From: a virus
Virus record (IMG/VR): IMGVR_UViG_3300029241_000080
DNA: 32,038 nucleotides
Strand: one strand, 5' to 3'
Shown: positions 3,208 to 28,625 of the stretch, one piece after another
How positions within the stretch are numbered: position 1 is the first letter of the stretch
How the letters are laid out: the number at the start of each line of letters is the position of its first letter
Position numbers and translations under genes: made by a program
The notes under the pieces: model-generated
The model's database searches: none
What the model saw: the letters and a program-made list of their open reading frames with translations, nothing else
What the model was told of the DNA's origin: nothing

Positions 3208-5151
3208 TTACTTGTATCTGCCTACGACGTAGTAGCTGATGCGTGGAGTTAGTATCGTCGCCGTGGTAGGCCGTGCGAGTGCATACGCCGGCGCGCGGGT
3301 AAGCAGATCGTCGCTTGCGCCAAAAGTGGATATCAGCCAAGCGTCCTTATCCCCGCCGCTATAAGACGCCGATACCAACGGCGTGGCGATAAAAGCAAAA
3401 GGATACTGCCGTGCTGTGACGTTGCTCGGCAAGTCCATCCACGTGCCATAGTACATGCTGCCCCACGCGGACGTGATCGCAATCTGATCGACGCCGGATA
3501 CCGCCCACAGCTCCGCAATGCCGCTGCTCCACTTGCGCCACGTCCAAAAGTCATTCGCCCCCTGCTCGGTGACATAGTCCGAGCCGGTGACGACGCTATC
3601 CGCATATGCTTTTGCCGCGTCCAGCGCCGTTTTTACCGCGTATGGCGTGGCTGCAAGCACCTTGCTGATGGAATCGATTCTGGTCGACAGCATGGTTGTG
3701 CCGTAGTGCGACAGGCTCGCACGCACGGCGATGGCAGCATCCGTCTCCGCCTTGGTGTAGTAATCTCTGCCAGACATGGCGCCGATGTCGGCCAGCAGCT
3801 CGGCCGGTGTGCGATAGTACACCCAGCCAGACTCATCCAGTACGGCGATCTTGCCGGGTACGCGGCCGAGGTCGGTTGCCTCTGTTGTCTGCAGCCATGT
3901 ACCGGTAAAGTACTTGCCGGCGACATTGCCCGTAAAAGTCCCGCCGGACTTGTCCATCTTATCGCCCAGGGCAGTCTTGTCGGCCTTGGTGTCCAGCGCG
4001 GCCTTGATCGCCCGGTTTTGCACCGGATTTGTGGATGTGTCAGATAGCGCGCTGTCCACGTCGATCCCTCCGCCAGACGCAGCCACAGACCCGCCCGCTG
4101 ACCCGCCGCCGGAGGCGACGGCGCCGGTCAGCGTCTTACTGCCCCAGCCAAGCGTCAGGCTGTCTTTGTCGCCGACGAGACTTGTGTCCACTTTGGACAC
4201 CGTCATCACGGCGTCGATGCCGTGCGGCGGCGACACCACGCGCACGCTGTCGCCGACATCAAAAGGCTCCAGCTCCGTGTCTGCACCGGACAGGTCCGCC
4301 GCGCTGACCTCGATTCCACGCGACAGGCCGCAGTTTTTGGCAAGATAAGACGCCGCCGTCGACTTAAGCACGGCAGGATCATCCGTGTCTACCTGCACCG
4401 TACCGTCGATGCGGCCATACAGCGCCTCGGCGTCTGCGTTGATCAGATACGGGACCCCGCCGTTTACGCTGTCGATCGTCAGCCCGTCCTTGCCGACTGG
4501 GTAGACGCGCGTCAGCAAGTTCGCGCCGTCGATTTTGTCGGTAAGATTTAGTAAATTTTTGCGGATGTCCACCTGCTGTGTGCACATATGGCGATAGCTT
4601 TTGTGCACATCCAGGTATACGTTGCCTCCGGAGTATCGCAGGCGCATCGTCCCGCCAACGGCCGTCATGGCCTCCTGCAGCAGCGACAGCGTAGATACAT
4701 ACTCTGTATGCTGCACGGACAGCGTCGGCAGCGCGGAGTCCACCGTACCAAGCAAGATCTTACGCGCAGGTGCGCACGCAGCGTTATACTGCGTCAGCAG
4801 CGCGGTGACGTAGTACTCCACGGTGCTTGGTGACAGCGTAAAAGGTGCTTTGCATATATCGTCCAGCCACAGCATCGCACCGTCCACGCTATAGGTGCGG
4901 CTGCCGCGCAGATCCGTGGACGTGTCAGTCAAGCTGCCGCGAAAGATCTCCGTCCCGTCTTTTTGGATCGAGATCACGGATGCGCGCTTGATCGGCACGT
5001 CGCGCATGGCGTTGGACGGCGGCAGCACAAAATCCGCCGAGTCGATCTCGCCGACTGCGCGGTGCAGCGTGCCGGCAGAGATCTCGCGCCCGGCCATGCC
5101 GACCGCAAAAAGCAGCGTACCGTCTGTATAGCCAGCGTACATCAGATCCAC
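3208..5151 (-). CDS. Tail-associated lysin-like (Tal) / tail fibre, receptor-binding protein
   Basis: About 645 aa, positioned directly after Dit. It has a siphovirus Tal-like N-terminal part, Gly/Ser linkers (GGGSAGGSVAASGGG) and a fibre motif (SDTSTNPVQNRAIKAALDTKADK). The start is either GTG 5151 or ATG 5142; the latter forms an ATGA overlap with the Dit stop. Confidence 0.8.
   Translation of the reverse strand: MDLMYAGYTDGTLLFAVGMAGREISAGTLHRAVGEIDSADFVLPPSNAMRDVPIKRASVISIQKDGTEIFRGSLTDTSTDLRGSRTYSVDGAMLWLDDICKAPFTLSPSTVEYYVTALLTQYNAACAPARKILLGTVDSALPTLSVQHTEYVSTLSLLQEAMTAVGGTMRLRYSGGNVYLDVHKSYRHMCTQQVDIRKNLLNLTDKIDGANLLTRVYPVGKDGLTIDSVNGGVPYLINADAEALYGRIDGTVQVDTDDPAVLKSTAASYLAKNCGLSRGIEVSAADLSGADTELEPFDVGDSVRVVSPPHGIDAVMTVSKVDTSLVGDKDSLTLGWGSKTLTGAVASGGGSAGGSVAASGGGIDVDSALSDTSTNPVQNRAIKAALDTKADKTALGDKMDKSGGTFTGNVAGKYFTGTWLQTTEATDLGRVPGKIAVLDESGWVYYRTPAELLADIGAMSGRDYYTKAETDAAIAVRASLSHYGTTMLSTRIDSISKVLAATPYAVKTALDAAKAYADSVVTGSDYVTEQGANDFWTWRKWSSGIAELWAVSGVDQIAITSAWGSMYYGTWMDLPSNVTARQYPFAFIATPLVSASYSGGDKDAWLISTFGASDDLLTRAPAYALARPTTATILTPRISYYVVGRYK
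4184..4200. repeat. 17-bp palindrome GTGTCCA-CTT-TGGACAC, copy a (inside the Tal gene)
   Basis: Exact match, read directly. It encodes V-S-K-V-D-T in the Tal frame, just before the Gly-rich linker. Confidence 0.95.
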
Positions 5152-6146
5152 CCCCTCCGCCCGGTAAGCGTAAGCTCGCCGGCCGCGCCGCCGATCGCGT
5201 ATGCGTAGTCCGGCGTCTTGCGGATCTGCAGATACGGGCTGGATGTCTCGCGGTCGCCGAGCGTCGCCGGGGCATACGTGCGATCACAGCGATAGATCTG
5301 CACACGGCCTTGGTCGGAAGCCGGATACATCAGCCGGTCGCTGCACAGCCCGGCAAGCGATCCGGGCTGCGCGCGGAAAAGCTTGATGTTGCTTGCTGTG
5401 CACCCGCCGGGGTTGATCGTCTCCAGCATCATGTACAGCCCGCCGACCGGCACGCTGGAGATCCACCTGCTTTTGCCGTCGCCATATGGCTTACCGGATA
5501 CGTCCACGATGGTATACCACCCGCCGGTGATATCCGCGGACACAAGGCAGCTTCCGGCGGTCGGCCATGGCAGCCGGAAGCGTGCGTAGCCATACACGCC
5601 GCCACCGGTGTCGACAACGGACTTGATGCGTAGCACGCTGCTTGCTCCGTCTCCGACGACGTCAAAGTTTTCGTCGACCGATGACGATGATCCGACCGCA
5701 GTCACGCTCCGCCCGATCAGGACGTTGTCCGACGCCGCGAGCATCGGGATCTTTACGGATACCTCGGCGTCATCCAGCCGGTAAGGGTCGGCGTTGATCG
5801 TCAGGTCAAAGATCGTGCGATCCAGCGATGTGTCCGGCGTGCCGACCGCGCACCGCCCGATGTAGTAGCCGTCGCGGCCGTCTAGCTCCAGCTTTCGCCG
5901 CTGCCCATGCACGGCAGCGGCGAAAGCATAAAAGTCAAAAGATCCATGCGGGCAAAAGCCAAGCTTGAGCTTGATCTGGCGGTTGCCAAAGACAGGCTCG
6001 CCGGTCAGCGCGTCGGTAAGATCCAGCTCGCCGTCCGCGCCGGGGACGCTGACGGTCTGCGTTTTTACGGTCGGCAGCCCGATCTGCACGCCCATCAGCT
6101 GCAGGCCGTCGTACTGCACGCCGCCAATTTTACAAGATAGTGCCAT
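5142..6146 (-). CDS. Distal tail protein (Dit, Sipho_tail family)
   Basis: Lies directly after the tape measure gene. The start is ATG 6146, with a TAATG overlap onto the TMP stop and GGAGGA upstream. The N-terminus MALSCKIGGVQYDGL...GELDLTDALTGEPVFGNRQIKL is typical of Dit. The 433-aa track ORF is an Arg-rich upstream extension. Confidence 0.8.
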   Translation of the reverse strand: MALSCKIGGVQYDGLQLMGVQIGLPTVKTQTVSVPGADGELDLTDALTGEPVFGNRQIKLKLGFCPHGSFDFYAFAAAVHGQRRKLELDGRDGYYIGRCAVGTPDTSLDRTIFDLTINADPYRLDDAEVSVKIPMLAASDNVLIGRSVTAVGSSSSVDENFDVVGDGASSVLRIKSVVDTGGGVYGYARFRLPWPTAGSCLVSADITGGWYTIVDVSGKPYGDGKSRWISSVPVGGLYMMLETINPGGCTASNIKLFRAQPGSLAGLCSDRLMYPASDQGRVQIYRCDRTYAPATLGDRETSSPYLQIRKTPDYAYAIGGAAGELTLTGRRGWI

Positions 6147-10223: not shown

Positions 10224-10490
10224 TCACCTCACCACGATCTCAAGCCCGCCGTCCCGCGTCTCGTAGGTGCGCTCGACGATGTAGCGCCGGCCGCCATACT
10301 CGACAAATCGCTGGCCGTCATAGTCGCGCCAGTCGGCCAGCAGGAACTGCACCGACGGGTGCAGGCCAACGGCGGCCGCCTGGTAGTGCTCGGCGCGCGT
10401 GATGCTTTCGCGCCGGCAAAAAACCTCGTGGCTGCCGACGTCGTTGCCGCGCTCGTCGATCGCTACCAGCGTGATGATATCATCGTACAC
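10224..10490 (-). CDS. Head closure / head-tail adaptor protein
   Basis: 88 aa with a GTG start at 10490 and AAGGAGGGG upstream. Size, and position after the gp6-like connector gene, fit SPP1 gp16 / HK97 gp9-type proteins. Confidence 0.6.
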   Translation of the reverse strand: MYDDIITLVAIDERGNDVGSHEVFCRRESITRAEHYQAAAVGLHPSVQFLLADWRDYDGQRFVEYGGRRYIVERTYETRDGGLEIVVR

Positions 10491-10511
10491 ACGTGCCCCT
10501 CCTTTGCAGGT

Positions 10512-10528
10512 GTGTCCAAAATGGACAC
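10512..10528. repeat. 17-bp palindrome GTGTCCA-AAA-TGGACAC, copy b (intergenic)
   Basis: Exact match. The arms extend to 13 bp (10506-10534). It lies 7 nt upstream of the SD of the head-closure gene. Confidence 0.95.
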
Positions 10529-10544
10529 ACCTGCGCGTAGTTTT

Positions 10545-10832
10545 TTAGCCCTGCATCCGCTGCTTGCAGAGCCGATTGTTAATTTTTGCCCGCAGGTAGC
10601 GCGGCATTGCCAGTGTCGGCTGCTGCCTGCGCTCGTGCAGGTGCGCGGCGTACATCTCCAGCAGCAGCCGGTCGCCGGGGTCGTCCATATCCAGGACGAC
10701 GCCCTCGGTGCGCAGCATCTTGCCGGCGGCGGCGATCAGCGCCGCAAAGTACTCGTCGCGCTTGGTGTGCGTCACGCCGAGGTCGGCCTTGAGCAGCGCA
10801 AGCACCGTCTCGGCCGAGCTGACGTCCGCCAT
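10545..10832 (-). CDS. Head-tail connector protein (gp6-like)
   Basis: 95 aa immediately after the capsid gene, with a TAATG overlap. The helical N-terminus (LLKADLGVTHTKRDEYFAALIAAA) is typical of the Phage_connect_1 family. Confidence 0.65.
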   Translation of the reverse strand: MADVSSAETVLALLKADLGVTHTKRDEYFAALIAAAGKMLRTEGVVLDMDDPGDRLLLEMYAAHLHERRQQPTLAMPRYLRAKINNRLCKQRMQG

Positions 10833-16214: not shown

Positions 16215-16432
16215 GTCTCACGCTCCTTTTGTGTCCACTTTGGACACGCTCCCGGCCGCTGTTTGGCCGGGAAAGTTTCGCTTTTTCGCGCAAAATCTGC
16301 GCGTCCCGAAAAATTCGCCTCCAAGGTTTCCGTGCGCGCGCCCGATTGCTTTGTTCCCGCGCGATCCCCCCGCGCCGAAAACTCGGCGCGGTTGGAGAGA
16401 GTTCCCGGTGCCGGTCTTTGGAGACCGGCCAA
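16215..16432. other. Non-coding packaging region, candidate cos site
   Basis: 218-bp ORF-free gap between the HNH and terS genes. It is rich in short hairpins (CCGGCC-N7-GGCCGG, CGCGCCGA-N4-TCGGCGCG, CCGGTCT-N4-AGACCGG), contains repeated TTTT-CGCGC-type motifs, and ends in a G8 run. Confidence 0.5.
16231..16247. repeat. 17-bp palindrome GTGTCCA-CTT-TGGACAC, copy c (abutting the terS SD)
   Basis: Exact match. In minus sense it reads GTGTCCAAAGTGGACAC-AAAAGGAG-8 nt-ATG(terS). Confidence 0.95.
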
Positions 16433-17846: not shown

Positions 17847-18693
17847 CCATGCCTCCCAGGGTCGCAATAATCGCTTTTTCGCGCGGCGACAGCCTCCACG
17901 TTTCCGCCGCAGCTTTCTCCGCCGCAGCTTTCTCCGCCGCAGCTTTCTCCGCCGCAGCTTTCTCCGCCGCAGCTTTCTCCGCCGCAGCTTTCTCCGACAG
18001 AAGCAGGCCGCCGCCGAAAATGGCTTTTCCCGCGCGGCGCTGGTCATCGAGTGCTGCGATCAGCACGCAGTCCCCACGCCGCACCCGGAAATCGACGCCG
18101 TACTTGCTGTATCTTTGCAGCATCGCAGCGGTGACGATGTGATCCGGATAAATGTACTTTGGTTTTGTGGCCGTCGTCATCGCTTTGATCTTTTTTACCG
18201 CCTCGGCGATCTTTGCTCCGAGATCCGGCGCGGTCTGCGCCACGATATCACCGCCATAGCTTGTCACAAAGGCCGTCTTAACGTGCGCGCCGTTTTCGTA
18301 AACTATGTCCGCGTCGCAAATGACGTGGTTCATCCGCATCGCCACATTTTTACCAGCAAGTGCCGTAAGACTCGGCGCAAAAAGGAAAAACGCGATGCCG
18401 CGGCTAAGATAAAAATTACAGATTTGTGACAGGATCGAAAACGGAGGATTGTCAAGAACGACACAGCCGTCCGGGTAGTCAAACGCCTCGTAGTCTCCGC
18501 CCGGATAAAACGGGCGGACGATACTGCCCGGATCGATACCATACTGCTCGCACGCCCAGTCGCGGATGGCATCGTAGACAAGCGGCGGCGTGTAGCAGTC
18601 GTCCGTCGTCTTTTTGGGCTCAAACTTTGCGACAAAATCGTCGTACTCTGGGTTGTCGGCAAAAAGCGACGTTTGTAAATTTTGGCTGATGAT
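17824..18693 (-). CDS. N6-adenine DNA methyltransferase (gamma-type order, TPP ... DNPPF) with C-terminal (AAEKA)n repeat
   Basis: Motifs CYTPPLVYDAI and VVLDNPPFS are present. There is no in-frame ATG, GTG or TTG between the upstream stop (18750) and the catalytic motifs. The start is tentatively ATC 18693, 6 nt after AAAAGGA. The upstream part of the 393-aa track ORF is an Arg/Gly-rich off-frame read. Confidence 0.65.
   Translation of the reverse strand: MISQNLQTSLFADNPEYDDFVAKFEPKKTTDDCYTPPLVYDAIRDWACEQYGIDPGSIVRPFYPGGDYEAFDYPDGCVVLDNPPFSILSQICNFYLSRGIAFFLFAPSLTALAGKNVAMRMNHVICDADIVYENGAHVKTAFVTSYGGDIVAQTAPDLGAKIAEAVKKIKAMTTATKPKYIYPDHIVTAAMLQRYSKYGVDFRVRRGDCVLIAALDDQRRAGKAIFGGGLLLSEKAAAEKAAAEKAAAEKAAAEKAAAEKAAAETWRLSPREKAIIATLGGMDGKNKKA
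17904..17993. repeat. Perfect 15-bp tandem repeat x6 (CCGCCGCAGCTTTCT)
   Basis: Six identical head-to-tail copies. They are in frame in the methyltransferase gene and encode (AAEKA)6. Confidence 0.95.
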
Positions 18694-20488: not shown

Positions 20489-21023
20489 GGCCGGCCTCCT
20501 GCTCGTCGATTAAAAATTGATGATGTTGCAGAAGCTCAAAGGCAGCCTGCAGCAGTATATCATCACAACAGTCGATGTCGCGCAGCGGACACTTGTCACA
20601 GTTTTCCTTGCTGGCGCCGATGCAAAGCCGTAACGTATCCATGACCTCGTCGCGTGTCATGCCGTTAAAATCCCAGCGCCCGCCGACGACGCCGCGGATT
20701 TTGCCCTCGCGTGTCGTCGCAAGCGTCCACCTGTAATAGCGCGCAGACTTGATGTCATACGTCGGCTTGCCGGTGTACTCCACCAAAAGGTGCTCAATCC
20801 GTGCACCTTTGGAGTCCTCCCAGCCCGGCAAAAACGCGACTGCATCCGCGCTGTCCAGCTGCGCAAAGCTGATGCGCATATAGTCGGCGTTGCTCATGCC
20901 CTCCGGCTGCATGGCCGGGTTGATGGGCGTGTGGCCGGCATCGGCGATGTCCGCCGCGGCGCGGGCAAACTTGGCCTTATAGTACGGGTCTCCGGTGATC
21001 TTACCTGCTATGTAGATTTTCAT
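20478..21023 (-). CDS. DUF4406-like (nucleoside 2-deoxyribosyltransferase-like fold) protein with Cys-rich C-terminal domain
   Basis: 181 aa from ATG 21023, with GGAGGA upstream and an ATGA overlap onto the ParB-like stop. MKIYIAGKITGDP...FLPGWEDSKGARIEH matches the DUF4406 pattern. Confidence 0.7.
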   Translation of the reverse strand: MKIYIAGKITGDPYYKAKFARAAADIADAGHTPINPAMQPEGMSNADYMRISFAQLDSADAVAFLPGWEDSKGARIEHLLVEYTGKPTYDIKSARYYRWTLATTREGKIRGVVGGRWDFNGMTRDEVMDTLRLCIGASKENCDKCPLRDIDCCDDILLQAAFELLQHHQFLIDEQEAGHGK

Positions 21024-22279
21024 GCGTCGTCCTCCTTTTTGTACTCGCGCTGCGGCAGCGCCGTAAAGTGCGGGTTGTCCGTCCGGCAGAGCAGATAGTC
21101 CGTGGTCACGCCGAGGATGTCGGCGGCCGCGACCAGCGCGTCGAGCGACTCGACAGCCACACTCCTGTAAGGCGCCCAATACGTGCCGCCACTCGCAAGC
21201 CCAGCCACAGTGGTGTGCAGCGCCTCGGCGACCGCCTCCTGCTCTCCGTATGCGGCGAGCGCGTGCGTCAGTCTGCCCCAGTAGATGCGGCACTTGCTCT
21301 CGCGCTCCCCGCGGCGCTTGGCAGCCTCGTCGTTCGCGCGCTGCTCGGCCTCGGCCTTATCCTCGCGGAGCTGCAGGTGCCTGTCCTTGGCGACCTTGCA
21401 GTACTTGTCGCACGTAGCGATGTCGTAGCACTCCATGCAGCAGGTGTGCTCGCAGCTGCGCATGTAGTTGCCGGTCGTCTTTTGCAGCGATTTGACCATG
21501 TTGCCGCACGGGACGCCGCATGCATACTTGCACTTGCGGGCGGCGAGACTGTCGCGGTCGCTCAGGATGCGCTCGGCCTCGCCGCAGCGCATGGCGACCA
21601 GACCGTCCTGGCCGTTGCCCTTGACCTTGGCGATCAGTTGCTGGTCGTCCGCGGAGCACTTGGCGATCTCGTAGGCCACGCTCTCGGGCATGCGGCCGTC
21701 GTCATAGTACTGCTTAATCTGCGGGATCAGCTTGGTCTTGATCGTGTCCAGCCGTGCGATCTTGGACGCCGAAATATTGCACGCGCTGGCGACGTAGTCG
21801 CGCATCCGGCCCGGGAACTCGTAGCCATGGGACTTGAGGCCGTACAGCAAATCGCGCACACGGTCGACCTGCTTGGAGGTCTCCGCCGAGGTCAGCACGC
21901 GCGTCGCGCTGTTGGCCTGGATCAGCATCAGCTCCTCCATCAGGTCGTCGCCCGGGTCGCGCACAAAGCACGGCGTCGTCTCAAACGGCTTGGTGTCCTC
22001 GGCGAGATGGTCGTCCAGGATCGTCATCAGCGCGCGGTGGCGCCGGTGGCCGGAGATGATGATGTAGCCCTCGCCGTCGCCGGACGGCCGGACGGTTAGC
22101 GGGTCGAGCAGCCCCTGCATCAGGATGCTGTCGATCAGGTCATCGACCTTGGAGGTGTCGTAAAAATTTTTGTCGTTTGCGAAAATCTTGCGCGTAGGGA
22201 TCATCTGCAGCCTGCGCTCGGCCGGCTTGGCAGCGCCCTCTGGCGGCTTGATGTAGTCCGCGAGGTTAAAATTACTCAT
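21020..22279 (-). CDS. parB: ParB N-terminal domain protein (partition/nuclease-like) with Cys cluster and C-terminal XRE-type helix
   Basis: 419 aa from ATG 22279. It has a ParB-box region (LIDSILMQGLLDPLTVRP...YIIISGHRRHRAL) and nine Cys between aa 250 and 294. The C-terminus LGVTTDYLLCRTDNP is typical of HTH_3 ends. It lies directly downstream of parA. Confidence 0.75.
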   Translation of the reverse strand: MSNFNLADYIKPPEGAAKPAERRLQMIPTRKIFANDKNFYDTSKVDDLIDSILMQGLLDPLTVRPSGDGEGYIIISGHRRHRALMTILDDHLAEDTKPFETTPCFVRDPGDDLMEELMLIQANSATRVLTSAETSKQVDRVRDLLYGLKSHGYEFPGRMRDYVASACNISASKIARLDTIKTKLIPQIKQYYDDGRMPESVAYEIAKCSADDQQLIAKVKGNGQDGLVAMRCGEAERILSDRDSLAARKCKYACGVPCGNMVKSLQKTTGNYMRSCEHTCCMECYDIATCDKYCKVAKDRHLQLREDKAEAEQRANDEAAKRRGERESKCRIYWGRLTHALAAYGEQEAVAEALHTTVAGLASGGTYWAPYRSVAVESLDALVAAADILGVTTDYLLCRTDNPHFTALPQREYKKEDDA

Positions 22280-23042
22280 CGTCTGCCGCCTCCTTGCCCA
22301 GGTACTCGTCCACAAAATCGCGGTAGTCGCGGGCGGCCGCGCACCAGCGGCTGTATGTGCTGATCGGCTGGCGCGCGAAGGTCGCCTCGTCCATCTTGTC
22401 CGTGCGGCGGATCGTGGTCTCAAACACCGGCACATCCATGGCGCGCAGGTACTGCTCGCCCTGCGTCACGACCGGCGCGTTGTGCCACATCGTCACCAAC
22501 ACACCGGCGATCCGGATGCCGCTGCGCACCGTCTGCACGGCGCGGATCTGCGCCGTCAGCTCGTCGATGCCGGAGATGGCAAAGGCGTCGACCTTGGCCG
22601 GGATGATGATGTCGTCGCTGACGGAGATGCCCGCGATCGACACCGCCGTAAAGCCCGGCGGGCAGTCGATGATGACATAGTCATAGTCCGACTCGTCGCG
22701 CATATCGCCGACAAAGTCCGCAAAATTTTGGATCAGCTTGGCGTCCGCGGTCGCCGCCGCGACGTCGAGCTGCAGCAGGTCCATGCTGGCGGGGATGATG
22801 TCCACGCCGTCGACCTGCGTCATCCAGCAGTAGCTGTCCCACGCATCCGGATGCGTAAACACGTCGCAAAGCTTCACCGGCGCATTTTCGCCGCCATAAA
22901 AGCGGGTCGCGTTGGCCTGCGGGTCTGCGTCGATCAGCAGCACGCTCTTGCCGTGCTCCGTCGCCAGGATGCTGGCCATGTTGATGGCGGTAGCGGTCTT
23001 GCCGACACCGCCCTTGAGATTTACAATGCTGATAACTTTCAT
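22272..23042 (-). CDS. parA: ParA-family partition ATPase
   Basis: Deviant Walker A (NLKGGVGKTATAINMA), LLIDADPQANAT and IIDCPPG motifs. 256 aa. Confidence 0.92.
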   Translation of the reverse strand: MKVISIVNLKGGVGKTATAINMASILATEHGKSVLLIDADPQANATRFYGGENAPVKLCDVFTHPDAWDSYCWMTQVDGVDIIPASMDLLQLDVAAATADAKLIQNFADFVGDMRDESDYDYVIIDCPPGFTAVSIAGISVSDDIIIPAKVDAFAISGIDELTAQIRAVQTVRSGIRIAGVLVTMWHNAPVVTQGEQYLRAMDVPVFETTIRRTDKMDEATFARQPISTYSRWCAAARDYRDFVDEYLGKEAADDE

Positions 23043-23323
23043 TTTTTTGCACCTTTCTTCCTGCGCTTTGTCTCGCCCGCCATCCGCGCCTCACGCGGTC
23101 GCCGCGGCGTGATGTTGGCATCCGGATCACCGGCGCGATCCGGGAAGTAGTAGCTCTCGCGGCACTTGCGTCCGCGGGGCATTTCAAACTCGACGGTATA
23201 AAACCGCCGCTGCGGATGGATGTACACCACTGTGCCGGTAAAGGCTTGCCCATCCGACACAAAGCCCGTGCAGCTGACGCCGTAGGACGGCACCATGCCG
23301 GGCAGCTTGTCGCCGATCTTTAT
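23039..23323 (-). CDS. Hypothetical basic-tailed protein upstream of parA
   Basis: The sequence (I/M)KIGDKLPG...GTVVYIHPQRRFYTVEF... ends in a Lys/Arg-rich tail. The first in-frame ATG is at 23296, but a strong SD (GGAGGGAGGAGG) sits 8 nt upstream of ATA 23323, which overlaps the dnaB stop as ATAA. Confidence 0.45.
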   Translation of the reverse strand: MKIGDKLPGMVPSYGVSCTGFVSDGQAFTGTVVYIHPQRRFYTVEFEMPRGRKCRESYYFPDRAGDPDANITPRRPREARMAGETKRRKKGAKK

Positions 23324-24627
23324 GGCAGTTCGCCTCCTCCCTCCGCGGTGCGCGGCCATGCCTGCATCCGCGGCCAGTCGTCCTCGTCGTCGTGGTCGGC
23401 ACGTGTGTCCATTTTGGACACCGCCGGCAGCATACGCAGATGCGCCGCGTCAAAGACCAGCTCGATCGCGCCGCGCTCTCCCTCTTTGTTTTTGACGATC
23501 GACAGCACCCGGTCGCCGCCGGGCTGCGCCGCGAGGATCATGATAGCGTCTGCGTCCTGCTCCAGCTGGCCGGACTCGCGCAGGTCCGACATCGACGGTG
23601 TGCGGCTGCGTGCCGTGCCTTTTTCGGGGCGCGACAGCTGCGACAGCGCGATCACGGCGATGCCGGTCCGCTGCGCCATCGTGTGCAGCGCGAGCGAGAT
23701 GTTGGTCACCTGCTCGACGCGGGTGTTGCCCTTGGCCTGCAGCAGCTGTACGTAGTCGATGACGATCACGTCGTACCGCCGCGCCATGGCGACCGCCTGC
23801 ACATCGGCGACGCCGAAACCGCCAGCGCGGATGACATCAAGGTTGATGTGCTCCGCCGTCCGGATCGCGGTCGTCGCGGAGGCATAGTCCTCGGCGATCA
23901 TCTGATTGCGCTTGATGCGCCCGAAGTTGATGCCCTGCACCTGTGCCACCATGCGGTCGTACAGCTTGGCGTCCGATGTCTCAAGGCTAAAAATCCCGAC
24001 GCGCAGACCGCTGCGCGCCATGTGCATCGCAAACTGCGTCGCCAGCAGCGTCTTGCCGCTGCTCGGCAGGCCGCCGAGGATGATCAGGTCGCCGCGCTCG
24101 GCGTAGAGCCTCTCGTCCAGCTGCCGGATGCCCCAGCGGAGATAGTCCGGCTGATGCCCATCGGCGTGGCGCTGGTAAAACTCGCACAGTCCCTGATGCC
24201 AGCTGACGACGCGCAGCGTCTTGCTGTCGCACAGGCACTCGCTCGCCGTCTCGACGGCCGCGCGCGCCTCGTCCAGCGTCACCGCGTCGAGCATCTTGGA
24301 CGCCGCATCCTTGATGCGCGCAAGCCTTGCCTGATCGCGCATCACGTCGGCATATGCCTCCCAGTGCGCCGCCGTCGGTGTGTCGTCCATGATCTGCACC
24401 AGCATCTGCCGATATGCATCGCCCAGGCGGTGCAGCACCGTGACCACGTCGACCGTCTGACACGCGGACCACTGTGCGCGGATGGCATCGTACACGTGCC
24501 GGTACTCCGGCGTCAAAAAGTCCTCCGCTGAGACGCGCAGCATCACGTCGCCGACGATCTCCGGCGAGATCAGCACGCTGCCGATCACGGCCGCCTGCGC
24601 ATCGATCAGTGTCTGCTTTACGTCCAT
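23320..24627 (-). CDS. dnaB: Replicative DNA helicase DnaB
   Basis: 435 aa from ATG 24627. It has a DnaB N-terminal domain, Walker A (GGLPSSGKTLLATQFA), Walker B (VIVIDYVQLL), SQLSRPEK and the RESGQLEQDAD motif. Confidence 0.93.
   Translation of the reverse strand: MDVKQTLIDAQAAVIGSVLISPEIVGDVMLRVSAEDFLTPEYRHVYDAIRAQWSACQTVDVVTVLHRLGDAYRQMLVQIMDDTPTAAHWEAYADVMRDQARLARIKDAASKMLDAVTLDEARAAVETASECLCDSKTLRVVSWHQGLCEFYQRHADGHQPDYLRWGIRQLDERLYAERGDLIILGGLPSSGKTLLATQFAMHMARSGLRVGIFSLETSDAKLYDRMVAQVQGINFGRIKRNQMIAEDYASATTAIRTAEHINLDVIRAGGFGVADVQAVAMARRYDVIVIDYVQLLQAKGNTRVEQVTNISLALHTMAQRTGIAVIALSQLSRPEKGTARSRTPSMSDLRESGQLEQDADAIMILAAQPGGDRVLSIVKNKEGERGAIELVFDAAHLRMLPAVSKMDTRADHDDEDDWPRMQAWPRTAEGGGELP
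23405..23421. repeat. 17-bp palindrome GTGTCCA-TTT-TGGACAC, copy d (3' end of dnaB, upstream of the par operon)
   Basis: Exact match. It encodes V-S-K-M-D-T in the DnaB C-terminal tail. Confidence 0.95.
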
Positions 24628-25385
24628 AGCGGCAGGCCTCCTCCCTCCGCCGGTTGCTCTGCCGGCGCGTGTGGCTCGTCCTCCCAGCGCCGCTGGTTTA
24701 GGTATGTAGCCGCATACGGGATGCCCACACCCCGCTGCCACTCCTCGCTGGCCATCTGGCGCTTGAGCGCTCTGGCGATGTCATCGATCAGCGCATCGTC
24801 CGGCTTGAGCTTGTCCCACGCGGCCGCGGCAGCCCTTGGCTTTTCGCCCCGTGGGTAGTACTTCCAAAACGCCGCGAAGCGTTCCGGCTTCCACGTCGGT
24901 TCTCGCCCTTGCTCTTTTTTCGGCGCTCGACGCCCCCTCTGGGGGGTAAGGGGGGTATTAGTATCTAAGTACTTGGTATCTTTAGTATTTGGTTGCGTTG
25001 GATTTCCCGTTGACGGGTTATCCGTCGACGGGTTTCCCGACGACGGTGACACCGTTGTGGGATTATCCGACGACGGTGTCGCATCAGCGCCCAGCGGCGC
25101 CTCGTGCACGATGTACTCGTTGCCCGCAAAAGATCCGTCCGCCGCGTGCGTCTGGCGGCGCTCAATGTAGCCCGCCTGCTCCAGCTCCACGATCGCGGAC
25201 CGGATGGCGTCCTTGCCCTCCTTGCAGATCCGAGCGAGGCCCTCGAGCGTATAATCCCAGTCGTCAGGCAGCCGCAGGATCTTGCTCAGCAGGCCGATCG
25301 CCTTGAGGCTCAGGCGGGGATCGTCCAAATGGCGATTGCTCATGACTGTGTAATTGCCTGTTTTCTCCACGCGCATGACGGCCAT
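24618..25385 (-). CDS. Replication initiator / replisome organiser (winged-HTH N-terminus, DnaD-like C-terminus)
   Basis: The N-terminus (YTVMSNRHLDDPRLSLKAIGLLSKIL...YIERRQ) is wHTH-like. A Pro/Ser/Thr/Asn low-complexity linker follows. The C-terminus (FWKYYPRGEKPRAAAAAWDKL...YLNQRRWEDE) is typical of phage DnaD-like organisers. It lies upstream of dnaB. Confidence 0.75.
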   Translation of the reverse strand: MAVMRVEKTGNYTVMSNRHLDDPRLSLKAIGLLSKILRLPDDWDYTLEGLARICKEGKDAIRSAIVELEQAGYIERRQTHAADGSFAGNEYIVHEAPLGADATPSSDNPTTVSPSSGNPSTDNPSTGNPTQPNTKDTKYLDTNTPLTPQRGRRAPKKEQGREPTWKPERFAAFWKYYPRGEKPRAAAAAWDKLKPDDALIDDIARALKRQMASEEWQRGVGIPYAATYLNQRRWEDEPHAPAEQPAEGGGLPLWT

Positions 25386-25433
25386 CAAAAATCCCCCCTT
25401 GCCAAATCAAAGCTTTTGCAGTAAGATAAAAGC

Positions 25434-25512: not shown

Positions 25513-25800
25513 TCACACCACCCTCATGCCGGGGTAGTACTCCGGCACCGCGTTTTTGATCGGCCGGCCGCGCTTGCGCTTTTCCGGCTGCGGCTTCTGG
25601 CGCGGCTGCGGTGCGCAGACGGCTGCCGGTGCCGCTGCGATGCGGCAGCGCTCGACGTAGGCGTCTACGTCCGACTGGTAGTAGCGCAGCGACTTGCCCA
25701 GCTTGTAGCACGGCAGCTCGCCGTCCGTCACAAGCCGCCCGACGGACGACCGCGAGATCGACAGCTGATCGCACACGTCCTTAGTCGTCAGCATGGCCAT
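25513..25800 (-). CDS. Excisionase-family / MerR-like HTH DNA-binding protein
   Basis: 95 aa from ATG 25800, with GGAGGGG upstream. MLTTKDVCDQLSISRSSVGRLVTDGELPCYKLGKSLRY matches the HTH_17 (excisionase-type) pattern, and the C-terminus is basic. Confidence 0.7.
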   Translation of the reverse strand: MAMLTTKDVCDQLSISRSSVGRLVTDGELPCYKLGKSLRYYQSDVDAYVERCRIAAAPAAVCAPQPRQKPQPEKRKRGRPIKNAVPEYYPGMRVV

Positions 25801-26251
25801 CCTCGTCCCCTCCTTTTGCGTACTTAAGCTGCATCGCCGCCTGCACGATCCCGTCGAGCTCGCGTGTGATCCGCTCGAAGTCCGGTCGCTCGTCCTGGTC
25901 GATGCGGCCATCCTCGGCAATGTCAACGAGGCGGTCGATGCGGTGCGAGCTGTCAAAGTCGCGGATCCGGCGCAGCAGCTGGATCACGGCCTGCGGCAGC
26001 GCGATGGTGTCCACCTGCGGCAGCAGGTCGGCCGCGACGCGGCTCTTGTTGAGCAGATGCCAGTAGCCGAGCACCGGCGCGCCGGGCACCTCGACCATCC
26101 GCGTCACGACGTCGTCAGACGGCATCCCGCGCCCGGACTCGTACAGGCGCACGCTCTCGACGGAGATGTCCAGCGCCTCCGCCCAGCGCTCCTGCGTCAT
26201 GCCGGCAATGCGCCTGCCGGTTTGGCTGATATTGTGGTAGTTGTGCTGCAT
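25781..26251 (-). CDS. XRE-family HTH transcriptional regulator
   Basis: 156 aa. MTQERWAEALDISVESVRLYESG is an HTH_3 motif, followed by a C-terminal helical domain. It is in the early operon. Confidence 0.75.
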   Translation of the reverse strand: MQHNYHNISQTGRRIAGMTQERWAEALDISVESVRLYESGRGMPSDDVVTRMVEVPGAPVLGYWHLLNKSRVAADLLPQVDTIALPQAVIQLLRRIRDFDSSHRIDRLVDIAEDGRIDQDERPDFERITRELDGIVQAAMQLKYAKGGDEDGHADD

Positions 26252-26258
26252 GGTGTTT

Positions 26259-26474: not shown

Positions 26475-26495
26475 GTTTTTGCTCCTTTCTGCCGG

Positions 26496-26687: not shown

Positions 26688-26708
26688 AAAAACACCTCCT
26701 GCTGGGCG

Positions 26709-26800
26709 AATGTCATAGTTTGCGACCTTGCAAACAGCAATGTCACCGTTTATGACATCATTTTACCCCCAAAAAACGCAAATGTCAATATCTTTGTCAT
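26709..26800. promoter_or_regulatory. Operator-like repeats of the genetic switch
   Basis: The palindrome ATGTCA-N7-TGACAT (26740-26758) overlaps the predicted early transcription start. There are further (A)ATGTCA copies at 26709, 26781 and 26794. The palindrome GTTTGC-N6-GCAAAC lies at 26718-26735, and TTGCAAAC recurs at 26819. Confidence 0.5.
26760..26788 (-). promoter_or_regulatory. Early (cro-side) sigma-70-type promoter TTGACA-17-TAAAAT
   Basis: Read on the minus strand, the -35 element TTGACA is at 26788..26783 and the -10 element TAAAAT at 26765..26760, with an exact 17-nt spacer. It lies about 70 nt upstream of the cro-like ATG. Confidence 0.7.
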
Positions 26801-26818
26801 TATTTTTTTGTCCGGATA

Positions 26819-26847
26819 TTGCAAACGTCAAAAATTGTGACTATTAT
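26819..26847 (+). promoter_or_regulatory. Repressor-side sigma-70-type promoter TTGCAA-17-TATTAT
   Basis: The -35 element is at 26819-26824 and the -10 element at 26842-26847, with a 17-nt spacer. The first start codons (GTG 26856, ATG 26859, ATG 26865) lie only about 9-18 nt after the -10, so the mRNA has a very short leader or none. Confidence 0.65.
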
Positions 26848-26855
26848 TTGATCGG

Positions 26856-27812: not shown

Positions 27813-27814
27813 TT

Positions 27815-27831
27815 GTGTCCAAAGTGGACAC
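27815..27831. repeat. 17-bp palindrome GTGTCCA-AAG-TGGACAC, copy e (between the repressor stop and the HIRAN SD)
   Basis: Exact match. It starts 3 nt after the repressor TGA and abuts GGGAGGAG. Together with copy f it forms a 21-bp perfect inverted repeat (27814-27834). Confidence 0.95.
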
Positions 27832-27848
27832 GGGAGGAGAGTCAAAAA

Positions 27849-28625
27849 ATGAAAAAGTGGTATCAGTACTGGACAGTCTGGGTGGCGATTGCACTGCTTG
27901 CTGGGTCTTGGGTGCCCGTATGGATCTTTGGCAATCAGGCGAGCGACGTTGTGCTCGGCGCTATCGTCTACGCGCTGGCGTTGGTTTCCATTGTGTTTTT
28001 TGTCGTGTTTGCTGTGCAGTATAATCGCGCAAAAAAGGCGGCGCGCGAAGCTGCCGACGCAGCGCACGCTGCCGAGCTGCGCGAGCAGTGGGCGCAAAAG
28101 CAGGCGGACGCAGCCGCATCCAAGGCAGCAGCCGAAAAAACGCCCGCAAAGCCCCGCGCAAAGTTTGAGCGCCACAAGGTCGCCGGCACGTCCTACCATC
28201 TGGATGCGATCATGGAGCTGGCCGAGGATAACCCAGACTACGACATGACACAGCGTGAGATTATCGACGACGGCCTGACCGACGAGCGCATCTATCAGTA
28301 TACTTTTACCGACGGGCCGGTCGAGCTGGTCGATGACCCGGGCAACGAGTACGACCCCAACGCCATCAAGGTGCTGGTCGCCGGGCAGCACATCGGCTAC
28401 ATCAAGCGCGGCAGCACCGGCCGCGTCCATAACCTGCAGCGCACCGGGCGCGTGCTCGGCGTCACGGCAGAGATCTACGGCGGCAAGTACAAGGTGGTGA
28501 TCTGTGACGACGACGATGACGGCGCAGAGCACTACGATCTGATCAGAGACGAGACGGGATACGGCGCAGCCATCGAGATCCTCGTCCGCCCGGAGCAGGA
28601 GCCCGTGTCCACTTTGGACACATAA
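27849..28625 (+). CDS. Membrane-anchored HIRAN-domain protein (lysogeny-module accessory gene)
   Basis: 258 aa from ATG 27849, with GGGAGGAG upstream. It has two N-terminal TM helices (WTVWVAIALLAGSWVPVWIF, VVLGAIVYALALVSIVFFVVFAV) and an Ala/Lys/Glu-rich linker. The C-terminal HIRAN-like motifs are KVAGTSYH ... LVDDPGNEYDPNAIKVLVAGQHIGYIKR. Confidence 0.75.
   Translation: MKKWYQYWTVWVAIALLAGSWVPVWIFGNQASDVVLGAIVYALALVSIVFFVVFAVQYNRAKKAAREAADAAHAAELREQWAQKQADAAASKAAAEKTPAKPRAKFERHKVAGTSYHLDAIMELAEDNPDYDMTQREIIDDGLTDERIYQYTFTDGPVELVDDPGNEYDPNAIKVLVAGQHIGYIKRGSTGRVHNLQRTGRVLGVTAEIYGGKYKVVICDDDDDGAEHYDLIRDETGYGAAIEILVRPEQEPVSTLDT
28605..28621. repeat. 17-bp palindrome GTGTCCA-CTT-TGGACAC, copy f (last codons of the HIRAN gene)
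   Basis: Exact match. It encodes V-S-T-L-D-T followed by the stop. The 21-bp sequence at 28602-28622 is the exact reverse complement of 27814-27834. Confidence 0.95.

What the first reader, a model, noticed from the sequence alone, without database searches (positions are those of the whole stretch)
4184..28621. Six perfect copies of a 17-bp palindrome GTGTCCA-N3-TGGACAC at module junctions
Exact copies lie at 4184-4200 (CTT spacer), 10512-10528 (AAA), 16231-16247 (CTT), 23405-23421 (TTT), 27815-27831 (AAG) and 28605-28621 (CTT).

A specified 14-nt arm pair is expected about 1e-4 times in 32 kb (32,000 divided by 4^14), so six copies cannot be chance.

Three copies lie inside ORFs, always in the same frame (GTG TCC ANN NTG GAC ACA). 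They encode VSKVDT in Tal, VSKMDT in the DnaB tail and VSTLDT at the HIRAN C-terminus, which indicates selection on the nucleotide sequence. Three sit directly 5' of a Shine-Dalgarno:
- terS: palindrome-AAAAGGAG-8 nt-ATG.
- HIRAN gene: palindrome-GGGAGGAG-9 nt-ATG.
- Head-closure gene: palindrome-7 nt-AAGGAGGGG.

Every copy lies at a functional boundary: Tal body to fibre, head to neck, regulation to packaging, replication to partition, and both ends of the accessory gene. The motif is absent from the cI/cro switch region, so it is not the repressor operator.

Three hypotheses fit:
- Dispersed parS-like centromere sites for the phage ParB-like protein. Chromosomal parS and F sopC sites are palindromes of similar size, and some are intragenic.
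- Stoperator-like silencing sites of the kind known from cluster A mycobacteriophages.
- An RNA hairpin (7-bp stem, 3-nt loop) read by a translational or antitermination factor.
Basis: partly seen in the sequence, partly recalled or inferred. Interest (0 to 1): 0.85.

Follow-up and report, generated by a model that had tools for sequence, protein, structure and literature searches.

The report
Dispersed ParB-binding boxes in gut phage
The six identical 17-bp palindromes are real and are most likely the docking sites (parS-like boxes) of the phage's own ParB partition protein, a site/protein pair shared by a large family of temperate phages of gut Oscillospiraceae, where the boxes also mark the edges of swappable anti-phage defence genes.

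Summary
In detail: six exact GTGTCCA-N3-TGGACAC sit at the stated coordinates, against 0 in shuffles. The window is a complete circular 31,939-bp phage genome that encodes ParA (22272-23042) and a ParB (21020-22279).

- In 80 ParB-homolog loci found by protein alone, the palindrome or a close arm variant occurs 256 times (about 0.5 expected).
- In 61 of those 80 loci one copy lies at the parA-parB junction.
- Each phage prefers its own half-site variant.
- The two arms of one site are no more alike than arms of different sites in the same phage. That fits a dimeric protein, not a hairpin.
- Among DnaB-related phages, 21 of 23 ParB+ loci carry sites against 1 of 40 ParB- loci.

The "same reading frame" point is explained by codon usage. 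The stoperator and RNA-hairpin ideas are not supported.

A new finding is that the boxes bound exchangeable defence-gene cassettes downstream of the repressor gene.

The closest analogues are the N15 IR1-4 centromeres and the RK2 KorB operators. No binding has been shown. Whether the system serves partition or silencing is inferred, not tested.

The parts
4184..4200 (.). ParB-box 1 (GTGTCCA-CTT-TGGACAC). It lies inside the tail protein gene 3208-5151(-), at codons 318-323 (VSKVDT).
   Evidence: The PHROG tail-protein match covers aa 3-342. Homology to relative L003 ends about 80 nt beyond the site.
10512..10528 (.). ParB-box 2 (spacer AAA). It is intergenic: 16 nt after the stop of ORF 10545-10832(-) and 7 nt before the SD of the head-tail adaptor gene 10224-10490(-). 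The flanks extend the palindrome to a 14-bp stem (10505-10535).
   Evidence: The position is kept in relatives L121, L123, L129, L130 and L131, with varying spacers. An analogous site lies at the 3' end of the Cormatin adaptor gene.
16231..16247 (.). ParB-box 3 (spacer CTT). It is intergenic between the HNH gene 16433-16735(-) and terS 15843-16214(-), directly before the terS SD.
   Evidence: The same position recurs in 7 of 19 loci with an HNH homolog and in Flavonifractor phage Cormatin.
23405..23421 (.). ParB-box 4 (spacer TTT), in the last 33 codons of dnaB 23320-24741(-). It lies 363 nt upstream of the parA start and is the site nearest the par operon in this genome.
   Evidence: It is present in relatives L132-L135 and absent as an exact copy in L121, L127 and L129-L131.
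27815..27831 (.). ParB-box 5 (spacer AAG). It lies 2 nt after the stop of the cI-like repressor gene (end 27812, +) and directly before the SD of the HIRAN cargo gene. It forms the left edge of the cargo cassette.
   Evidence: Homology to relatives with another cargo ends at 27836. The 'right after the cI stop' position recurs in 8 of 20 loci.
28605..28621 (.). ParB-box 6 (spacer CTT), in the last codons of the HIRAN gene. It forms the right edge of the cargo cassette, ahead of a GC-rich hairpin and the integrase gene.
   Evidence: Homology to relatives with another cargo resumes exactly at 28605. With box 5 it forms a perfect 21-nt inverted repeat (I14).
22272..23042 (-). parA: a 256-aa Walker-type partition ATPase.
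   Evidence: Pfam AAA_31 at 6e-40, plus CbiA and ParA. Homologs are found in 75 of 80 ParB-family loci.
21020..22279 (-). parB: a 419-aa ParB-family protein and the proposed reader of the boxes. It has an N-terminal ParB_N domain with GHRRHRA, a central helix-turn-helix, a Cys-rich segment, a coiled coil and an XRE-like tail (DYLLCRTD).
   Evidence: Pfam ParB_N. PDB sequence hits to Spo0J, ParB and Noc. The AF2 model (pLDDT 72.5) matches the NTD plus DNA-binding domain of C. crescentus ParB-parS (6t1f, TM 0.81), KorB (8qa9) and Noc. Conserved columns are listed.
27849..28625 (+). Cargo gene (HIRAN-domain protein) between boxes 5 and 6. The slot is exchangeable and holds other, defence-type genes in relatives.
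   Evidence: Pfam HIRAN. The same slot holds a DEDDh exonuclease-BRCT gene (PADLOC PDC-S48) in L121, L122, L126, L132 and L135.

Best explanation
The six palindromes are the cognate DNA boxes (parS-like sites) of the phage-encoded ParB (21020-22279), which works with the adjacent ParA (22272-23042).

**Shown by comparison.** The box and this ParB family are inherited together. The primary box of the family lies at the parA-parB junction. Each phage keeps its own preferred half-site at all of its boxes. The two arms behave as independent half-sites, as expected for a dimeric helix-turn-helix reader.

**Inferred from established ParABS, KorB and Noc biology.**
- A ParB dimer docks on each box, binds CTP (the GxRRxRA motif is kept as GHRRHRA), closes into a clamp and slides onto flanking DNA.
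- With six boxes on a 31.9-kb circle, no position is more than about 3.8 kb from a loading site, so the whole free genome can be coated.
- ParA then positions or segregates free circular phage genomes, after infection or after excision and before integration or lysis.

**A likely second role, also inferred.** Many boxes sit 0-100 nt after stop codons, directly before ribosome-binding sites, and at both edges of the cargo genes that follow the repressor gene. ParB made in the early lytic operon may therefore act there as a KorB-like roadblock or silencer.

**A likely by-product.** Because the boxes are islands of identity between otherwise diverged phages, they also serve as crossover points for exchange of cargo cassettes.
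For: 1. **Motif-first search.** Among 120 IMG/VR loci that contain the exact motif, 26 carry a ParA homolog and 21 a ParB homolog, at 28-45% identity. In at least 14 of them the motif lies exactly between parA and parB. All five loci with 3 or more copies carry parAB.
2. **Protein-first search.** The 80 GTDB loci were picked only by ParB homology and are almost all Oscillospiraceae.
   - They hold 95 exact copies in 1.28 Mb (about 0.005 expected).
   - They hold 256 copies of GTGYYCR-N3-YGRRCAC (about 0.5 expected), spread over 74 of 80 loci.
   - In 61 of 80 loci one copy lies at the parB 5' end. In 57 of 75 it lies 0-150 nt after the parA stop.
3. **Arm variants.** GTGCCCG, GTGCCCA, GTGTCCG and GTGTTCA occupy the same parB-proximal position, and the dispersed copies of a locus share the variant. 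Within-locus half-site identity is 0.60 against 0.31 in shuffles, and 0 of 2000 shuffles reached it.
4. **Phyletic control among DnaB-related phages.**
   - ParB+: 21 of 23 loci have sites, 70 sites in 378 kb.
   - ParB-: 1 of 40 loci has a site, 1 site in 754 kb.
   - The ParB- set includes loci that keep ParA, DnaB and the HTH_36 initiator (L303, L311) and 8 loci with at least 55% GC.
5. **Host flank.** There are 0 sites in 27.7 kb on the host side of the integrase, against 104 in 430 kb on the phage side.
6. **ParB fold.** The protein has the canonical two-domain ParB fold, including the DNA-binding HTH.
7. **No rival centromere.** No other repeat in the genome qualifies. The only tandem array (17888-18007) falls in a stretch that most close relatives' homologs do not match.
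8. **Cultured relative.** The inducible prophage Flavonifractor phage Cormatin (ParB 38% identical) has boxes at the parB 5' end, upstream of terS and at the head-tail adaptor. The last two positions match the window.
Against: - No binding experiment exists. The link is co-inheritance and position only.
- The window's own parB has lost the internal box typical of the family. No remnant remains, and its nearest box is 363 nt upstream of parA.
- I found no residue in the HTH region that tracks the half-site variants.
- Close relatives are integrated prophages in 140-385-kb host contigs, and the phage has an integrase. A need for plasmid-type partition is therefore not obvious.
- The enrichment just after stop codons and at cargo edges is not predicted by a pure centromere role.
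- The ParB- control loci mostly come from lower-GC hosts. Only 8 are at or above 55% GC.
Confidence: 0.72

Rival explanations
1. The boxes are operators of another phage-encoded helix-turn-helix protein. Candidates are the 156-aa HTH_3 protein (25781-26251), the HTH_36 replication initiator (24618-25388) and the cI-like repressor. On this view the linkage to parB is only positional.
For: These genes belong to the same conserved module. HTH_3 is found in 43 of 80 ParB-family loci, HTH_36 in 56 and DnaB in 71. Boxes recur right after the cI stop codon in 8 of 20 loci.
Against: - The cI/cro switch has no box but has its own three operator-like repeats over the predicted divergent promoters.
- Loci with HTH_36 and DnaB, some with ParA too, but without this ParB have 1 site in 94 kb.
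- A single near-invariant 17-mer across phages with 30-45% identical proteins is unlike immunity operators (general knowledge).
- The one position kept in about 75% of the family is the parB 5' end.
Confidence: 0.1
2. The palindromes act as RNA hairpins (7-bp stem, 3-nt loop) at intercistronic junctions. Possible roles are mRNA 3'-end stabilisers, processing sites, or targets of a translational or antitermination factor.
For: - Each site folds as predicted, at about -10 kcal/mol for the bare stem and -25 kcal/mol at 10512.
- 32% of family sites lie 0-100 nt after a stop codon, against 8% of random positions.
- Three window sites abut Shine-Dalgarno sequences.
Against: - The stem sequence is conserved to the nucleotide while the loop varies. 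That is the reverse of what RNA-binding proteins usually read (inference).
- At the parB junction, where the sense strand is known, 25 of the 29 imperfect sites carry at least one C.A or A.C mismatch and only 4 are G.U-only.
- The arms of one site are no more alike (58.5%) than arms of different sites in the same phage (59.8%).
- There is no Rfam match.
- The sites lack T-runs on the sense strand.
Confidence: 0.07
3. The palindromes are recombination sites for a site-specific recombinase, either the tyrosine integrase (28674-29843) or the serine recombinase (30108-30923). They would delimit mobile gene cassettes, somewhat as attC sites do in integrons.
For: - Cargo genes next to int are bounded exactly by boxes, and homology to relatives breaks at the boxes.
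- Arrays of 2-3 box-bounded cassettes follow the repressor gene in L157, L163, L162, L140, L206 and L188.
- The window cassette has perfect 21-nt inverted repeats.
Against: - The same boxes occur in structural and replication genes and at the parB 5' end, where recombination would delete or invert essential DNA.
- Perfect symmetry gives no directionality (inference).
- The phyletic link is with ParB.
- Crossovers at boxes are equally explained by ordinary homologous recombination at conserved 17-21-bp islands (inference).
Confidence: 0.06
4. The palindrome is the binding site of a host protein, or a general repeat of the host chromosome, that the phage merely shares.
For: I could not scan a complete host chromosome. 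The ParB-negative control phages come mostly from other, lower-GC hosts.
Against: - There are 0 sites in 27.7 kb of host flank, against 104 in 430 kb of prophage DNA.
- Each phage has its own preferred variant.
- One site is fixed at the parA-parB junction.
- High-GC phages without this ParB have 1 site in 136 kb.
Confidence: 0.04

Closest known systems
Phage-plasmid N15: SopA/SopB with four dispersed centromere palindromes IR1-IR4
   Same: N15 is a temperate phage genome that carries several single, near-identical palindromes scattered over the genome and bound by its ParB-type protein. The N15 IRs read GTGCGACC-NN-GGTCGCAC (oligonucleotide table in PMC7205306). They are similar in size and symmetry to the boxes here.
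   Different: - N15 is a linear plasmid prophage that never integrates. This phage has an integrase, and its relatives are integrated.
- N15 uses a type Ia SopA/SopB pair. Here ParA is a small 256-aa ATPase, and ParB has an added Cys-rich segment and an XRE-like tail.
- The box sequence is unrelated.
- To my knowledge, the use of boxes as edges of cargo cassettes has not been described for N15.
Plasmid RK2: KorB-IncC with 12 dispersed OB operators
   Same: KorB is a ParB-family CTPase with a ParA partner and a short palindrome (TTTAGCSGCTAAA) at many dispersed places. It acts both in partition and as a sliding-clamp silencer of distant promoters (PMC11790492). The model of the phage ParB superposes on KorB (8qa9, TM 0.66).
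   Different: RK2 is a plasmid, not a phage. KorB needs KorA or TrbA as a clamp-locking partner, and I identified no such partner here. No sigma-70-like promoter was predicted next to the six boxes, so an operator role is untested.
Chromosomal ParB (Spo0J)/parS and Noc/NBS
   Same: The protein fold is the same (6t1f TM 0.81, plus 1vz0 and 7nfu), with the GxRRxRA box. Sites are about 16-bp palindromes, several per replicon. From memory, they are often inside genes, including spo0J itself.
   Different: The site sequence differs (parS is TGTTNCACGTGAAACA; from memory) and has odd symmetry (17 bp with a central base). The replicon is a 32-kb phage, not a chromosome.
Stoperators of cluster A mycobacteriophages
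   Same: Both are many copies of one short site dispersed through a temperate phage genome, frequently at gene junctions.
   Different: Stoperators are asymmetric, oriented with transcription, and bound by the immunity repressor, whose true operator is one of them (from memory). Here the site is a palindrome, is absent from the immunity switch, and tracks ParB.

Membership tests
ParABS partition system (ParB-CTPase / HTH class) | A Walker-type ParA ATPase encoded next to parB | tested here: met
   Pfam AAA_31 at 6e-40, plus CbiA and ParA, for 22272-23042. It overlaps the parB start by 8 nt.
ParABS partition system (ParB-CTPase / HTH class) | ParB with an N-terminal ParB/Srx domain carrying the arginine-rich GxRRxRA box, plus a helix-turn-helix DNA-binding domain | tested here: met
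   Pfam ParB_N. GHRRHRA is invariant across homologs. The AF2 model matches the NTD plus DBD of ParB, Noc and KorB. CTP binding itself was not tested.
ParABS partition system (ParB-CTPase / HTH class) | A cognate palindromic site genetically linked to parAB | tested here: met
   A site lies at the parB 5' end in 61 of 80 family loci. In the window the nearest site is 363 nt upstream of parA, and the internal one is lost.
ParABS partition system (ParB-CTPase / HTH class) | ParB binds the site specifically | not testable with these tools
   Only co-inheritance is available: 21 of 23 ParB+ loci against 1 of 40 ParB- loci have sites.
ParABS partition system (ParB-CTPase / HTH class) | The system stabilises an extrachromosomal replicon | not testable with these tools
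   Relatives are integrated prophages. The window is a circular assembly, which may be the excised or packaged form.
KorB-type global regulator | A ParB-family protein with many dispersed copies of one palindromic operator | tested here: met
   Six copies in 31.9 kb. Family loci hold up to 6-7 copies per 21 kb.
KorB-type global regulator | Operators placed at or upstream of promoters whose transcription they repress | tested here: inconclusive
   The consensus scan finds no sigma-70-like promoter next to any of the six boxes. The boxes lie after stop codons or before SDs. The scan is crude, and late promoters may not be sigma-70-like.
KorB-type global regulator | A clamp-locking co-repressor (KorA or TrbA type) | not tested
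   Several small HTH proteins are encoded, but none was examined for this role.
N15-type dispersed phage centromeres | A plasmid prophage lifestyle without integration | tested here: not met
   A tyrosine integrase lies at 28674-29843. Relatives with 87% identical ParB sit inside 140-385-kb host contigs next to host genes.
Cluster A stoperators | An asymmetric site bound by the immunity repressor and also present as the operator in the immunity switch | tested here: not met
   The site is a perfect palindrome. None lies in the 26.2-26.9-kb switch, which holds a different 18-nt repeat three times.
Described structured RNA families (Rfam) | A match to a curated covariance model | tested here: not met
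   No family reaches its gathering score anywhere in the window.

The most novel reading that the evidence does not exclude
In this phage family the ParB boxes may be more than centromeres. They may form a genome-wide, roughly evenly spaced set of clamp-loading sites that also frame every cassette of the lysogeny operon, in the order repressor gene, box, defence gene, box, defence gene, box, integrase.

On this reading, ParB made at the onset of lytic growth would switch off or insulate the prophage's own defence cargo and lysogeny genes. The conserved boxes would also act as the crossover points through which defence cassettes are shuffled between phages. That would be a ParB-based functional analogue of an integron-like cassette array.
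Probability: 0.2. Interest if true: 0.8.

Novelty: new variant of a known kind. Interest (0 to 1): 0.62.

Why it matters
If confirmed, this defines a new ParB/parS pair: a 17-bp GTGTCCAA-W-TTGGACAC box read by a ParB with an unusual Cys-rich and XRE-like C-terminal half.

The pair belongs to a very abundant family of temperate phages of human-gut Oscillospiraceae. Thousands of near-identical terminase and ParB sequences appear in public metagenomes.

Four points follow.
- It would show that integrating prophages, not only plasmid prophages, keep a full ParABS system with dispersed sites. That raises the question of what partition or ParB spreading does for a phage that integrates.
- It offers an orthogonal ParB/parS tool for labelling DNA in anaerobes.
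- The link between the boxes and the edges of defence-gene cassettes gives a concrete, testable handle on how prophage defence hotspots are built and regulated. The cassettes include PD-Lambda-1, DEDDh-BRCT (PDC-S48), Mrr-like nucleases, and NYN and HIRAN proteins.
- A cultured system exists in Flavonifractor plautii YL31 with phage Cormatin.

Tried and rejected
- **Rfam gathering scan and tRNA scan of the window:** nothing found.
- **Megablast of 20 kb against GenBank phages:** only a 184-nt hit.
- **Literature searches:** a search for the 7-mer alone was uninformative, with 7,184 papers, mostly primers. The arm plus parS plus ParB gave no relevant paper. ParB plus Faecalibacterium plus prophage gave nothing on this site. 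Ravin & Lane 1999 is not held.
- **HTH residues against half-site variants:** I looked for residues that track the variants and found no clear pattern.
- **Intergenic enrichment:** a first, crude test with a stop-to-stop ORF classifier showed no difference from random positions. A better test against called stop codons did show enrichment.
- **terL homologs as a control:** the protein search returned only near-identical sequences, so it was useless as a source of distant controls. The terL-alignment scan gave ParB-negative phages with 0 sites, but mostly from low-GC hosts.
- **HTH_36 alignment:** too diverged to seed a scan. I used DnaB instead.
- **The 15-nt tandem array at 17888-18007 as an alternative centromere:** rejected. 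It lies in a stretch that most close relatives' Rep-like homologs do not match.
- **Same-frame coding as evidence of special selection:** rejected. Codon usage explains it.
- **Terminator function:** rejected. No T-run follows on the sense strand, and only 10512 scores, on the antisense strand.

Full report
**Observation.** The pattern GTGTCCA-N3-TGGACAC occurs exactly six times, at 4184, 10512, 16231, 23405, 27815 and 28605. No match occurred in 100 dinucleotide-preserving shuffles. Relaxing to three mismatches adds only chance-level look-alikes. The stated spacers, the encoded peptides and the three Shine-Dalgarno contexts are correct. The first 99 nt of the window repeat at its end. The window is therefore a circular assembly of a complete 31,939-bp genome at 60.7% GC, and six is the full complement of sites.

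**Genome context.** This is a temperate siphophage.
- Lysogeny and replication genes:
  - a cI-like HTH/S24 repressor;
  - a HIRAN-domain cargo gene;
  - a tyrosine integrase;
  - a serine recombinase;
  - an HTH_3 protein;
  - an HTH_36 initiator;
  - DnaB;
  - ParA (22272-23042; AAA_31, E 6e-40);
  - a ParB_N protein (21020-22279).
- Late genes: a Rep_ORF2/G2P-like protein, HNH, terS, terL, portal, protease, capsid, head-tail adaptor and tail genes.
- A relative with 87% identical ParB is integrated in 140-385-kb host contigs next to host genes. The closest genome hit is a Subdoligranulum variabile MAG, and nearly all homolog-bearing genomes are Oscillospiraceae.

**The motif travels with parAB.**
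Of these, 26 carry a ParA homolog and 21 a ParB homolog, at only 28-45% identity. In at least 14 of them the motif lies exactly between parA and parB. All five loci with three or more copies carry parAB.
- *Protein-first search.* I aligned ParB homologs found by protein search and fetched 80 loci from GTDB genomes by ParB homology alone.
  - These loci hold 95 exact copies in 1.28 Mb, against about 0.005 expected from base composition.
  - Loci without the exact motif carry variant perfect palindromes at the same place: GTGCCCG-N3-CGGGCAC, GTGCCCA-N3-TGGGCAC, GTGTCCG-N3-CGGACAC and GTGTTCA-N3-TGAACAC. Of all perfect GTGNNNN-N3-NNNNCAC palindromes in these loci, only three singletons fall outside these five types.
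  - With the degenerate pattern GTGYYCR-N3-YGRRCAC there are 256 sites (about 0.5 expected) in 74 of 80 loci.
  - One site lies at the parB 5' end in 61 of 80 loci. In 57 of 75 loci a site lies 0-150 nt after the parA stop.
- *Peptide imprint.* Most homologs carry an N-terminal peptide such as VSKLDT, which is the translation of the box. Where the DNA variant changes, the peptide changes with it (for example VPESGT). The DNA symmetry is therefore what is conserved, not the peptide.
- *The window's lineage is the exception.* It has lost the internal box and has one 363 nt upstream of parA instead.

**A protein-read DNA site, not a hairpin.**
- Over 88 distinct sites the consensus is (T/G)GTGTCCAA-W-TTGGACAC. 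The flanks are not conserved, and the central bases are variable and A/T-rich.
At the parB junction the sense strand is known. There, 25 of the 29 imperfect sites carry at least one C.A or A.C mismatch and only 4 are G.U-only.
- Half-site identity within a locus is 0.60, against 0.31 after shuffling; 0 of 2000 shuffles reached the observed value. Each phage therefore has a preferred variant.
- The two arms of one site are identical in 58.5% of sites. That is no more than arms from different sites in the same locus, at 59.8%. This is what a dimeric reader of half-sites predicts, and not what selection for base pairing predicts.
- The hairpins would fold, at about -10 kcal/mol. No Rfam family matches, and the sense strand lacks T-runs.

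**Who reads it.** The AF2 model of the ParB has a mean pLDDT of 72.5. It superposes over about 190-240 alignment columns on the N-terminal plus HTH DNA-binding domains of several solved proteins:
- C. crescentus ParB bound to parS (6t1f, TM 0.81);
- KorB-KorA-DNA (8qa9, TM 0.66);
- Noc;
- Spo0J.

The arginine box GHRRHRA and a QANSxTR segment are invariant.

The strongest discriminating test is phyletic. I took 79 IMG/VR loci found through DnaB homology and kept those with at least 3 kb downstream of dnaB.

| Group | Loci | Loci with a site | Sites | DNA scanned |
|---|---|---|---|---|
| ParB+ | 23 | 21 | 70 | 378 kb |
| ParB- | 40 | 1 | 1 | 754 kb |
| ParB- with HTH_36 | 6 | 1 | 1 | 94 kb |
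| ParB- with at least 55% GC | 8 | 1 | 1 | 136 kb |

- Two ParB- loci, L303 and L311, retain ParA, DnaB and the HTH_36 initiator and have no sites.
- terL-related phages without parAB have 0 sites in 443 kb, but they come mostly from lower-GC hosts.
- On the host side of the integrase there are 0 sites in 27.7 kb, against 104 in 430 kb on the phage side.
- The immunity switch has no box and has its own 18-nt repeat three times over the predicted divergent promoters.
- I found no residue in the HTH region that tracks the arm variants. The assignment to ParB rests on linkage, phyletic pattern and fold, not on a recognition code.

**Positions.**
- *Reading frame.* The shared frame of the intragenic copies needs no special explanation. 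GTG TCC ANN NTG GAC ACN uses common G/C-ending codons and is 90-350 times more probable under the phage's codon usage than the other two frames.
- *Stop codons.* Family-wide, 32% of sites lie 0-100 nt after a called stop codon, against 8% of random positions.
- *Recurrent secondary positions.*
  - after terL (15 of 41 loci);
  - at the start of the Rep-like gene (15 of 59);
  - between HNH and terS (7 of 19);
  - right after the cI stop (8 of 20);
  - just before int (8 of 18).
- *Cultured relative.* The inducible prophage Flavonifractor phage Cormatin has a ParB that is 38% identical. Its boxes lie at the parB 5' end, directly upstream of terS, at the 3' end of the head-tail adaptor gene, and at one further gene end (PMC10197239).
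- *Spacing.* In the window the largest gap between sites on the circle is 7,518 bp. For six random points the chance of so small a maximum gap is 0.011. This is suggestive of selection for coverage, but it rests on one genome.

**Cargo cassettes.**
- *Window and close relatives.* The HIRAN gene is bounded by boxes 5 and 6. Five close relatives hold a different 1.5-kb cargo between the same two boxes. Nucleotide homology to the window stops at 27836 and resumes exactly at 28605.
- *Distant family members.* The repressor gene is followed by arrays of two or three cassettes, each closed by a box 0-40 nt after the stop codon. L157 reads cI | box | BRCT/TerB protein plus ORF | box | two ORFs | box | NYN protein | box. 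L163, L162, L140, L206, L188 and L159 are similar.
- *Cargo content.*
  - PD-Lambda-1 (E 7e-110);
  - DEDDh exonuclease-BRCT (PADLOC PDC-S48);
  - an Mrr-like nuclease fused to FtsK-gamma;
  - HSDR_N proteins;
  - Bro-N;
  - DUF4352.
- *Interpretation.* The slot is a defence-gene hotspot framed by ParB boxes. The simplest reading (inference) is that conserved boxes are the only islands of identity between diverged phages and so become crossover points. A regulatory role for ParB on this operon is an open and more novel possibility.

**Mechanism proposed.**
- *Shown:* co-inheritance, a fixed position at parB, half-site behaviour and the ParB fold.
- *Inferred from established ParABS, KorB and Noc biology:*
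  - ParB dimers dock on the boxes, bind CTP, close and slide.
  - ParA segregates or positions free circular genomes after infection or excision.
  - Boxes next to ribosome-binding sites and around cargo genes may let ParB act as a roadblock or silencer.
- *Unresolved:* why a phage that integrates needs this system.

**Comparison with known systems.** The nearest precedents are these.
- The four dispersed IR centromeres of phage-plasmid N15, which read GTGCGACC-NN-GGTCGCAC (PMC7205306).
- The twelve dispersed OB operators of RK2 KorB, a ParB-CTPase that is both a partition protein and a sliding silencer (PMC11790492).

This case differs in four ways:
- the site sequence;
- the ParB architecture;
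- an integrating lifestyle;
- the cassette-framing arrangement.

I found no paper that describes this site, though the library is limited. I class the finding as a new variant of a known kind.

Noticed in passing
window 1-99 and 31940-32038: The first 99 nt are identical to the last 99 nt. The window is a circular or terminally redundant assembly of a complete 31,939-bp phage genome and contains no host DNA.
   Followed up: yes
L157 376-4402; also L163, L162, L140, L206, L188, L159, L200, L121: Arrays of one to three gene cassettes lie downstream of the repressor gene, and each is closed by a family palindrome 0-40 nt after its stop codon. The cargo is defence-like: PD-Lambda-1, DEDDh-BRCT (PDC-S48), an Mrr-like nuclease-FtsK_gamma fusion, NYN, HSDR_N, Bro-N and DUF4352.
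   Followed up: partly
window 27814-27834 and 28602-28622: The two boxes around the HIRAN gene are part of a perfect 21-nt inverted repeat (TGTGTCCAAAGTGGACACGGG / CCCGTGTCCACTTTGGACACA), four bases longer than the box itself. Relatives with other cargo do not show the extension.
   Followed up: partly
window 17888-18007: A 15-nt unit (TCCGCCGCAGCTTTC) is repeated six to seven times in tandem, in the 5' part of the Rep_ORF2/G2P-like ORF (17088-18047, minus strand). Most close relatives' homologs match only about 254 of the ORF's 319 residues, so the repeat-bearing part appears not to be shared. It may be a coding repeat or an iteron-like array.
   Followed up: partly
window 26709-26841: Three copies of an 18-nt operator-like repeat (AATGTCAnnnnTTnnnGAC) lie in the cI/cro intergenic switch. 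They overlap predicted divergent promoters (TTGACA-17-TAAAAT on the minus strand at 26788-26760). They are probably the true immunity operators.
   Followed up: partly
window 29815-29851 and 30067-30103: Direct repeats of about 37 nt (81% identical; core ATATATCCCCA...ATCCC.ATG.C.CCGCAG) lie just downstream of the integrase gene. In integrated relatives host DNA begins there. They are likely attP arm-type sites.
   Followed up: no
window 21020-22279 (ParB), residues ~250-294 and ~376-404: The ParB family has an invariant six-cysteine segment (C250, C258, C280, C281, C284, C294), a long coiled coil, and a C-terminal XRE-like 'DYLLCRTD' helix. Many homologs also have an extra C-terminal domain. 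This architecture is not seen in the solved ParB, KorB or Noc structures that matched.
   Followed up: partly
window 30108-30923: A 271-aa serine recombinase (Resolvase plus Recombinase domains) is encoded in addition to the tyrosine integrase. Its role is unknown: multimer resolution, inversion or a second integration route.
   Followed up: no
window 10505-10535: At box 2 the palindrome is extended by its flanks to a 14-bp stem (TGCAGGT...ACCTGCG; RNA fold -25 kcal/mol). On the antisense strand it is followed by a T-run and scores as a terminator.
   Followed up: partly
whole window (six sites on the 31,939-bp circle): The sites are more evenly spread than random. The gaps are 6328, 5719, 7174, 4410, 790 and 7518 bp. 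The chance that six random points leave no gap above 7518 bp is 0.011. This is a single-genome observation.
   Followed up: partly
L137, L138 (GTDB) versus L136: Near-identical prophages (ParB 79-96% identical to the window's) are binned in a Subdoligranulum MAG and in two 'Collinsella' MAGs, which belong to a different phylum. This is either mis-binning or wide dissemination.
   Followed up: no
L303, L311, L326, L328, L329: These DnaB-related phages keep a ParA homolog but lack this ParB family, and they have no boxes. They presumably use a different centromere-binding protein and site.
   Followed up: no
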